Shown here piece after piece: positions 8,237 through 9,292 of a stretch of 10,732 bases of DNA. The position numbers and the translations under genes were made by a program. The notes under the pieces were generated by a model. That model did no database searches and had not been told where the DNA came from. It saw only the letters and a program-made list of their open reading frames with translations. Numbering within the stretch: the first letter of the stretch is position 1; the number at the start of each line of letters is the position of its first letter. Source of the DNA: Escherichia coli (GTDB taxonomy: Bacteria; Pseudomonadota; Gammaproteobacteria; Enterobacterales; Enterobacteriaceae); the NCBI RefSeq assembly GCF_003334335.1, contig NZ_QOWQ01000064.1; one strand, written 5' to 3'.

Positions 8237-9292
8237 GTGCGGGTATTACTTCGACCTGTTCTGGTACCGGAACTCGGGCTGGTGATCGTTAAGCCGGGCC
8301 GTGAATCCATGCCGGTATTCCACAATACCCGGGTACTGGTGGAGCCGGAACCGAAAAGCATGCGTAATCTGCCGTCCGGGGTCGTTCCTGCCGTTCGCCA
8401 GCCGCTGGCGGAGGATAAATCATTACTGCCATTTTTCAGCGACGAACGAGTGATTCGTGCTGCTGGTGGCGCTGGCGCATTGTCTGACTGGTTACTGCGC
8501 CATGTTAAATCCTGCCAGTGGCCACACGGCGATTATCACCACAGTGAAACCGTCATTCACCGTTATGGTACCGGCGCAATGGTGTTGTGCTGGCACTGCG
8601 ACAACCAGCTGCGCGACCAGACCTCCGAATCACTCGGGCAACTTGCTCACCAAAACCTGTTTGCATGGATGATTGACGTCATACGCCATGCAATGAATGG
8701 CTCGCAGGAACGGGAATTATCGCTGGCTGAATTATCCTGGTGGGCGGTCCGCAATCAGGTGGCGGACGCGCTACCGGAAGCGGTATTACGTCGTTCGCTG
8801 GGGTTGCGTGCGGAAAAAATCCGCTCAATGTACCGTGAAAGCGACATCGTACCGGGAGAGCAGACCGCCACCAGCATACTGAAGCAGCGCACAAAAAATC
8901 TTGCGCCGCTGCCTCACGCCCACCAGCAAAACCCGCCACAGGAAAAGACGGTGGTCAGCATTGCCGTTGATCCGGAGTCACCGGCTCAGTATCTCCAGCG
9001 CCAGAAATCACAACGGGAAGAGATGCCTGTATACACGCGTTGGGTAAAAACGCAGAAATGCATGACGTGTGGCAATCAGGCAGATGATCCGCATCACATC
9101 ATTGGTCATGGACTGGGAGGGATGGGAACAAAGGCTGATGATTTGTTTGTTATTCCGCTGTGCCGTAAATGCCATAGCGAACTACACGCCGGGGTAAAAG
9201 ATTTTGAAGAAAAACACGGCAGCCAGCTGTTGTTGCTGATTCGTTTTTTAATGCACGCGAGAAATTCGGGTGTTTTGAAGTGGAAAGCATAA
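8237..9292 (+). CDS. DUF968-family phage protein (YdfU-like) with a C-terminal Cys/His HNH-like metal-binding motif, 351 aa
   Basis: GTG 8237 with GGAGG 4 nt upstream; C-terminus CMTCGNQADDPHHIIGHGLGG...LCRKCHSELH (CxxC...HH...CxxCH). Confidence 0.7.
   Translation: MRVLLRPVLVPELGLVIVKPGRESMPVFHNTRVLVEPEPKSMRNLPSGVVPAVRQPLAEDKSLLPFFSDERVIRAAGGAGALSDWLLRHVKSCQWPHGDYHHSETVIHRYGTGAMVLCWHCDNQLRDQTSESLGQLAHQNLFAWMIDVIRHAMNGSQERELSLAELSWWAVRNQVADALPEAVLRRSLGLRAEKIRSMYRESDIVPGEQTATSILKQRTKNLAPLPHAHQQNPPQEKTVVSIAVDPESPAQYLQRQKSQREEMPVYTRWVKTQKCMTCGNQADDPHHIIGHGLGGMGTKADDLFVIPLCRKCHSELHAGVKDFEEKHGSQLLLLIRFLMHARNSGVLKWKA

What the first reader, a model, noticed from the sequence alone, without database searches (positions are those of the whole stretch)
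8237..9292. DUF968-like protein carries a C-terminal HNH-like Cys/His cluster
The C-terminal 60 residues contain CxxC...HH...CxxCH (CMTCGNQADDPHHIIGH...CRKCHSELH), resembling a zinc-stabilised HNH nuclease motif. Its position next to RusA in the nin region suggests a DNA-processing role for a family usually annotated only as a domain of unknown function.
Basis: partly seen in the sequence, partly recalled or inferred. Interest (0 to 1): 0.4.

Follow-up and report, generated by a model that had tools for sequence, protein, structure and literature searches.

The report
Prophage YdfU protein with HNH nuclease
The gene is an ordinary, very common E. coli prophage gene (YdfU/DUF968 family) whose C-terminal Cys/His cluster is indeed a zinc-stabilised HNH nuclease fold, but this had already been published and is already used in phage annotation, so the finding is correct and not new.

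Summary
ORF 8237-9292 (+, GTG start, 351 aa) is RefSeq WP_001265085.1, a YdfU-family 'DUF968 domain-containing protein' of an E. coli lambdoid prophage. It lies directly upstream of rusA and the Q antiterminator gene.

- PHROG_96, which matches the whole protein, is named 'HNH endonuclease'.
- Jablonska et al. 2017 place DUF968 and YdfU in His-Me finger group 7, note the RusA and Q neighbours and propose a recombination role.
- Curtis et al. 2014 describe the zinc-finger HNH motif of DUF968.
- Several RefSeq phage records already name the gene 'HNH endonuclease'.

The closest tested relative is the HNH domain of S. aureus phage PhiNM1 Gp16, a RecA-stimulated nickase (2026). YdfU itself has not been tested.

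One addition: the N-terminal domain has its own conserved four-ligand Cys/His site (C93, C/H101, C118, H/C121) in a beta-hairpin-plus-helix module of unknown fold family.

The parts
8228..8232 (+). Shine-Dalgarno sequence GGAGG for the GTG start. It lies inside the end of the upstream 90-aa ORF, whose TAA stop is at 8233-8235, which suggests translational coupling.
   Evidence: Read directly from the sequence.
8237..9292 (+). Whole CDS: 351-aa YdfU-family (DUF968) protein, 79% identical to E. coli K-12 Qin prophage YdfU.
   Evidence: WP_001265085.1; PF06147, E 1.1e-63; PHROG_96, E 1.3e-166; 79% identity to b1560.
8237..8701 (+). N-terminal domain (residues 1-155). It has no Pfam family. PHROG_11007 ('unknown function') covers residues 2-134.
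8513..8605 (+). Second conserved Cys/His site (residues 93-123), consisting of C93, H101, C118, C121 and D122. It lies in a beta-hairpin (105-110, 113-118) followed by a helix (119-125). It is inferred to be a structural zinc site.
   Evidence: In 34 homologues: C93 34/34, position 101 Cys 20 / His 12, C118 34/34, W119 33/34, position 121 His 26 / Cys 8, D122 32/34.
8714..8911 (+). Helical middle region (residues 160-225). This is the N-terminal part of the Pfam DUF968 model.
   Evidence: DUF968 covers 160-343; helices 163-172, 181-187, 211-220.
8912..8980 (+). Low-confidence, poorly conserved linker (residues 226-248).
   Evidence: AF2 pLDDT is below 50 for residues 228-238. The alignment is gap-rich here.
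8981..9271 (+). C-terminal His-Me finger (HNH) nuclease domain (residues 249-345).
9059..9187 (+). Inferred zinc ligands are C275, C278, C309 and C312. The inferred general base is H287. D302 occupies the 'N' position of the HNH motif. Inferred metal ligands are H313 and H317.
   Evidence: Residue roles are transferred from the PhiNM1 Gp16 mutagenesis (PMC12817073) through the alignments.
9293..9673 (+). rusA, a Holliday junction resolvase gene. It starts at the base after the DUF968 stop codon.
   Evidence: PHROG_34, E 4.2e-56, and the RefSeq annotation.
9670..10491 (+). Q-type antitermination protein gene, overlapping rusA by 4 nt. It marks the end of the nin-like region.
   Evidence: PHROG_127, E 8.3e-111, and the RefSeq annotation.

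Best explanation
The gene encodes a YdfU-family protein of a lambdoid prophage. It is expressed from the delayed-early (nin-like) operon together with rusA and Q.

The C-terminal ~100 residues form a zinc-stabilised His-Me finger (HNH) nuclease. C275, C278, C309 and C312 hold a structural zinc that clamps the beta-hairpin to the helix. H287, at the end of beta-1, is the general base. H313 and H317 on the helix, with invariant D302 at the 'N' position, hold the catalytic divalent metal.

The most likely activity is nicking or cleaving DNA recombination and replication intermediates of the phage. This would match the role of Rap/NinG or YbcO at the same map position in other lambdoid phages. It may depend on a partner such as RecA, as with its nearest structural relative (P1 Ref) and its nearest tested sequence relative (PhiNM1 Gp16).

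The N-terminal 155 residues, with their own conserved Cys/His site, and the helical middle region probably provide substrate or partner recognition.

Shown here: the fold, motif conservation and gene context. Inferred: the residue roles, the substrate and any RecA dependence.
For: - Pfam DUF968 (E 1.1e-63) and HNHc_6 (E 8.4e-07) cover the motif.
- PHROG_96 'HNH endonuclease' matches at E 1.3e-166.
- The AF2 model has pLDDT 90, with beta-beta-alpha at 284-318.
- The zinc and catalytic positions are conserved in 26-34 of 34 homologues at 25-79% identity.
- BLASTP to the tested nickase Gp16 gives E 9e-08 and 37% identity over 59 residues. hhalign gives 94.5% probability. The spacing is identical: CxxC, 9 residues, H, then Cxx(C/H)-H-xxx-H.
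- Gp16 mutagenesis of the equivalent residues abolishes its effect (PMC12817073).
- The gene sits at the end of the replication/nin region in 8 contexts examined. The late regulator (Q or Lpa) is directly downstream in 6 of them. A Holliday junction resolvase, from two different PHROG families, lies within two genes in 3 of them.
- The published classification and hypothesis agree (PMC5714182; PMC4118853).
Against: - No member of the YdfU family has been assayed. K-12 ydfU is still listed as uncharacterised (PMC11551758), and P1 PdcB has 'unknown function' and is nonessential (PMC10695390).
- RusA adjacency is not conserved in 5 of 8 contexts.
- About 10% of homologues have lost the HH and final His (P0201, P0203, P0230). 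Catalysis is therefore not indispensable in every lineage.
- Coordinates of the AF2 model could not be inspected, so the zinc-site geometry was not measured.
Confidence: 0.8

Rival explanations
1. The Cys/His cluster is only a structural zinc finger. On this view the protein is a non-catalytic DNA-binding or regulatory protein of the early operon (some database records call relatives 'transcriptional regulator' or 'antitermination protein Q').
For: - Three of 34 homologues lack the HH pair and the final His but keep the rest of the protein.
- Some records label the gene as a regulator or as Q.
- No activity data exist.
Against: - The residues that are catalytic rather than zinc-binding are kept in 30-34 of 34 homologues: H287, D302, H313, H317.
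- The closest tested relative is an active nickase.
- The 'Q' labels sit on records where the neighbouring Q gene is mis-merged or overlaps the match.
Confidence: 0.1
2. It is a terminase-associated HNH (HK97 gp74 type) that helps cos or pac cleavage during packaging.
For: Phage HNH proteins often have this role (background cited in PMC12817073). In P1 the homologue pdcB lies two genes upstream of pacA.
Against: - In lambdoid genomes the gene is in the early nin-like region, upstream of Q and the lysis genes and away from the terminase genes.
- One relative's genome (L003) carries a separate small HNH next to its terminase gene.
- P1 pdcB is nonessential whereas pacA and pacB are essential.
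Confidence: 0.03
3. It is a selfish free-standing homing endonuclease, or a host-directed toxin, rather than a recombination or replication factor.
For: - Gp16 overexpression inhibits host growth.
- A very strong Rho-dependent terminator lies upstream of K-12 ydfU. The authors discuss such terminators as silencing toxic prophage genes (PMC9160355).
Against: - The map position is fixed across Escherichia, Klebsiella, Salmonella, Yersinia and Vibrio phages. Homing endonuclease genes are usually scattered.
- The protein has a large conserved non-nuclease part.
- It matches no PADLOC defence model.
Confidence: 0.07

Closest known systems
E. coli K-12 Qin prophage YdfU (b1560; Pfam DUF968, PF06147; His-Me finger group 7 of Jablonska et al. 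2017)
   Same: 79% identity over the full length, with the same three-part architecture and the same position upstream of Q. The family is already classified as a His-Me finger with RusA and Q neighbours and a hypothesised recombination role.
   Different: K-12 YdfU has CRKHH where this protein has CRKCH (fourth zinc ligand His instead of Cys). It has H301 where this protein has D301. It has no rusA between it and Q.
S. aureus phage PhiNM1 Gp16 (Pfam HNHc_6, PF16784), a RecA-stimulated nickase (PMC12817073)
   Same: The HNH domains are homologous: BLASTP E 9e-08, hhalign probability 94.5%, with identical spacing of zinc and catalytic residues. Both are early phage genes near replication and recombination genes, and PhiNM1 also carries rusA.
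   Different: The N-terminal part of Gp16 is NinB/Orf-like. The N-terminal 250 residues of YdfU do not match it; HNHc_6 matches only model positions 113-184. RecA dependence is not tested for YdfU.
Bacteriophage P1 Ref (PDB 3plw; Pfam RecA_dep_nuc), a RecA-dependent HNH endonuclease
   Different: There is no significant sequence or Pfam match. Ref has a disordered basic N-terminus instead of folded domains (PMC4330346). P1 also has a true YdfU homologue, PdcB.
DLP12 prophage YbcO (PDB 3g27; Pfam DUF1364) and lambda Rap/NinG (PF05766)
   Different: They are single-domain proteins of about 100-200 residues. Neither gives a Pfam hit to this protein. YbcO matches by sequence only at E 0.5. Rap's branch-specific endonuclease activity is documented, whereas YdfU's is not.

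Membership tests
Pfam DUF968 (PF06147) / YdfU family | Significant full-length match to the family HMM | tested here: met
   E 1.1e-63, 214.7 bits, model positions 1-169 of 171, residues 160-343. 79% identity to K-12 YdfU.
His-Me finger (HNH, beta-beta-alpha-metal) superfamily | Beta-hairpin followed by a helix, forming the beta-beta-alpha-metal core | tested here: met
His-Me finger (HNH, beta-beta-alpha-metal) superfamily | Conserved general-base His at the end of beta-1 | tested here: met
   H287 is kept in 31/34 homologues. It aligns to Gp16 H157.
His-Me finger (HNH, beta-beta-alpha-metal) superfamily | Metal-binding His/Asn/Asp on the helix, and an Asn-position residue before beta-2 | tested here: met
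   H313 30/34, H317 30/34 and D302 34/34. They align to Gp16 H185 and H189. Assignment of D302 to the 'N' position follows the McrA alignment and is an inference.
His-Me finger (HNH, beta-beta-alpha-metal) superfamily | Metal-dependent nuclease activity | not testable with these tools
   No experimental report was found for any YdfU-family protein.
Zinc-finger subclass of HNH (CxxC...CxxC/H) | Four Cys/His ligands flanking the beta-beta-alpha core | tested here: met
   C275 34/34, C278 26/34, C309 28/34, position 312 Cys 15 / His 11.
Pfam HNHc_6 (PF16784; Orf/NinB-like domain plus HNH, e.g. PhiNM1 Gp16) | Full-length architecture with an N-terminal Orf/NinB-like domain | tested here: not met
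RecA-dependent nuclease (Ref, PF16786) | Sequence membership, and cleavage only of RecA-bound DNA | tested here: not met
NinG/Rap (PF05766) and DUF1364/YbcO (PF07102) | Significant match to the family HMM | tested here: not met

The most novel reading that the evidence does not exclude
YdfU-family proteins may be tandem His-Me-finger proteins. On this reading the N-terminal Cys/His module (C93, C/H101, C118, H/C121, D122) is a degenerate, catalytically dead copy of the HNH fold. It would recognise a DNA structure or a partner such as RecA and license the C-terminal nickase. The whole lambdoid and P1 (PdcB) family would then be Ref/Gp16-like RecA-guided nucleases.

Evidence in favour is weak:
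- The BLASTP (E 0.081) and hhalign (E 0.03-0.05) alignments are in register but not significant.

A column-shuffle control does not reach significance (9 of 150 shuffles score at least as high).
Probability: 0.2. Interest if true: 0.4.

Novelty: already known. Interest (0 to 1): 0.12.

Why it matters
The family is present in about 84% of complete E. coli genomes (4557 of 5426). It also occurs in Shiga-toxin-converting phages, immediately upstream of the late-gene regulator that controls toxin expression. Biochemical characterisation would therefore fill a real gap in the E. coli 'y-ome'. The bioinformatic insight offered by the finding, that DUF968 carries an HNH nuclease motif and sits beside recombination genes, has been in the literature since 2014-2017 and is already in PHROGs and RefSeq phage annotation. 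It adds nothing new. The only fresh item is the conserved second Cys/His site in the uncharacterised N-terminal domain.

Tried and rejected
1. Internal duplication (N-terminal Cys/His module as a second HNH).
- hhalign of residues 60-160 against 250-351 gave probability 1-2% and E 0.03-0.05.
- The observed score was 14.2, against 10.8 +/- 3.0 for column-shuffled controls; 9 of 150 shuffles reached it.
- The N-domain profile against Gp16 gave E 0.22. Against PDB sequences it found only chance aldolase hits.
- Result: not supported statistically. I kept it only as the speculative novel case.

2. Domain fusions as functional clues. Database proteins that join the N-domain to tail-tip J, capsid, portal, Q or LexA-type domains look like products of deletions or mis-calls in decaying prophages. 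I did not use them.

3. Defence-system membership. There is no PADLOC hit.

4. NCBIfam has no model for the protein.

5. The upstream 90-aa ORF is not a Rem homologue, despite the Qin-like gene order.

7. The first homology search returned only relatives above 90% identity. The representative-library search was needed to obtain diversity.

Full report
**What is there**

The window is part of a lambdoid (Qin-like) E. coli prophage. Bases 7900-9700 are 100% identical to many E. coli chromosomes, and related sequence occurs in 4557 of 5426 complete genomes.

The ORF at 8237-9292 (+) is real and matches RefSeq CDS WP_001265085.1, 'DUF968 domain-containing protein'. It starts with GTG. A GGAGG Shine-Dalgarno sequence precedes it at 8228-8232, and the TAA stop of an upstream 90-aa ORF lies one base before the start.

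rusA begins at the base after its stop codon, and the Q antiterminator gene overlaps rusA by 4 nt. The three genes therefore look translationally linked at the end of the nin-like region. The protein is 79% identical to K-12 Qin prophage YdfU.

**The observation**

The quoted strings are present. The residues are C275, C278, H286, H287, H291, C309, C312, H313 and H317, at window 9059-9187. The cluster starts 77 residues from the C-terminus rather than lying within the last 60, which is a trivial correction.

The cluster is not a chance pattern. A search of 1.84 billion representative proteins found 1954 relatives. In 34 full-length homologues at 25-79% identity:
- the zinc-type positions are kept in 26-34 of 34;
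- the catalytic-type positions (H287, D302, H313, H317) are kept in 30-34 of 34.

Position 312 alternates between Cys and His (15 and 11 of 34), as expected for a metal ligand. K-12 YdfU itself has CRKHH.

**Is it an HNH fold?**

Pfam gives DUF968 (E 1.1e-63, residues 160-343). Over the motif it gives HNHc_6 (E 8.4e-07), with weak HNH and HNH_5 hits. PHROG_96, annotated 'HNH endonuclease', matches residues 1-348 at E 1.3e-166.

An AlphaFold2 model built on 103 aligned sequences has mean pLDDT 90. It shows strand 284-287, strand 305-308 and helix 310-318, the beta-beta-alpha arrangement.

- EcoKMcrA, then GVE2 HNH

**The closest tested relative**

Phage PhiNM1 Gp16 was reported in 2026 as an HNH 'subclass 6' nickase whose activity is enhanced by RecA (PMC12817073). 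Mutagenesis defined its zinc ligands (C148, C181, H184) and its catalytic residues (H157, H185, H189).

I retrieved its sequence. It aligns to the window protein's motif with BLASTP E 9e-08 (37% identity over 59 residues) and hhalign probability 94.5%. The spacing is identical. By transfer:
- C275, C278, C309 and C312 are the zinc site;
- H287 is the general base;
- H313 and H317 are the metal ligands.

The homology covers only the HNH domain. Gp16's NinB-like N-terminal domain has no counterpart here.

**Already known**

Jablonska et al. 2017 (PMC5714182) define His-Me finger group 7 as DUF968 plus DUF1364. They name Qin YdfU and DLP12 YbcO, list RusA and Q as typical neighbours, and hypothesise a recombination and repair role like NinG and Ref.

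Curtis et al. 2014 (PMC4118853) describe the zinc-finger HNH motif of DUF968 proteins and their fusions to Erf, Rad52 and RusA.

RefSeq phage records (mEp460, mEp390, cdtI, RCS47) and recent GenBank phages already call the gene 'HNH endonuclease'.

What remains unknown is experimental. ydfU is still on the K-12 uncharacterised list (PMC11551758). The P1 homologue PdcB (27% identity) is of unknown function and nonessential (PMC10695390; PMC10067587).

**Context across relatives**

I examined eight contexts: the window, K-12 Qin, three metagenomic or genomic contigs, mEp460, Vibrio phage H20 and P1. The gene always lies at the distal end of the early replication/nin-like region.
- The late-gene regulator (Q or Lpa) is directly downstream in six of eight.
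- A Holliday junction resolvase lies within two genes in three of eight: RusA in two cases and a different family, PHROG_190, in one.

Adjacency to RusA is therefore recurrent but not obligatory. It supports a DNA-metabolism role only loosely.

Residues 1-155 form a separate, confidently modelled domain (pLDDT 88 when modelled alone) with no Pfam family. It carries its own conserved four-ligand site:
- C93: 34/34
- position 101: Cys 20, His 12
- C118: 34/34
- position 121: His 26, Cys 8

W119 and D122 are also nearly invariant. The site sits in a beta-hairpin plus helix (105-125).

Apparent fusions of this N-domain to tail, capsid, portal or Q domains are best read as prophage-decay artefacts.

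**Verdict**

The novelty is nil: the family, the fold assignment, the neighbourhood argument and the functional hypothesis are all published and partly built into annotation resources.

The best mechanistic model is a zinc-stabilised HNH nickase or endonuclease acting on phage recombination or replication intermediates, possibly RecA-assisted. I put the nuclease assignment at about 0.8 confidence; the substrate is far less certain. Interest is low.

Noticed in passing
window 8513-8605 (residues 93-123 of the same protein): There is a second conserved Cys/His four-ligand site in the N-terminal domain: C93, C/H101, C118, H/C121, plus W119 and D122. It may be a structural zinc site. The idea that it is a degenerate HNH copy was tested and is not statistically supported.
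   Followed up: yes
window 6737-7402 (+): A prophage-borne gene annotated by RefSeq as epoxyqueuosine reductase QueH (PHROG_3217, unknown function) sits between the replication genes and hokD. A tRNA-modification enzyme carried as a prophage 'moron' is unusual cargo.
   Followed up: no
window 7640-7795 (+): A HokD-type type I toxin gene lies inside the early region, about 440 nt upstream of the DUF968 gene. The order resembles K-12 Qin (hokD, then rem, then ydfU).
   Followed up: partly
window 7963-8235 (+): A 90-aa hypothetical ORF (PHROG_1212, unknown function) ends one base before the DUF968 GTG start and contains its Shine-Dalgarno sequence, which suggests translational coupling. It is not homologous to K-12 Rem, which occupies the corresponding place in Qin.
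   Followed up: partly
window 9670-10491 (+): The Q-type antiterminator carries a DnaJ-like CxxCxGxG zinc-finger segment at residues ~163-218 (weak TIGR02349 hit). It overlaps rusA by 4 nt.
   Followed up: no
L010 (phage P1, AF234173.1) 2405-3448: P1 PdcB is a full-length YdfU-family homologue (27% identity over 90% of the query). It lies directly upstream of the late promoter activator gene lpa, which mirrors the DUF968-then-Q arrangement in lambdoid phages. P1 therefore encodes both Ref and a YdfU-type HNH protein.
   Followed up: partly
L003 3717-4007 and L009 2172-2462: In two distant relatives (an NCBI genome contig and Vibrio phage H20), the gene directly upstream of the DUF968 gene is a nucleoside 2-deoxyribosyltransferase-like (DUF4406) gene. 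This is a recurrent neighbour not seen in the E. coli prophages.
   Followed up: no
proteins P0147, P0175, P0177 and others: Database proteins join the YdfU N-terminal domain to tail-tip J, capsid, portal, Q or LexA-type domains. They most likely arise from deletions or gene-call merges in degraded prophages, not from real domain architectures.
   Followed up: partly
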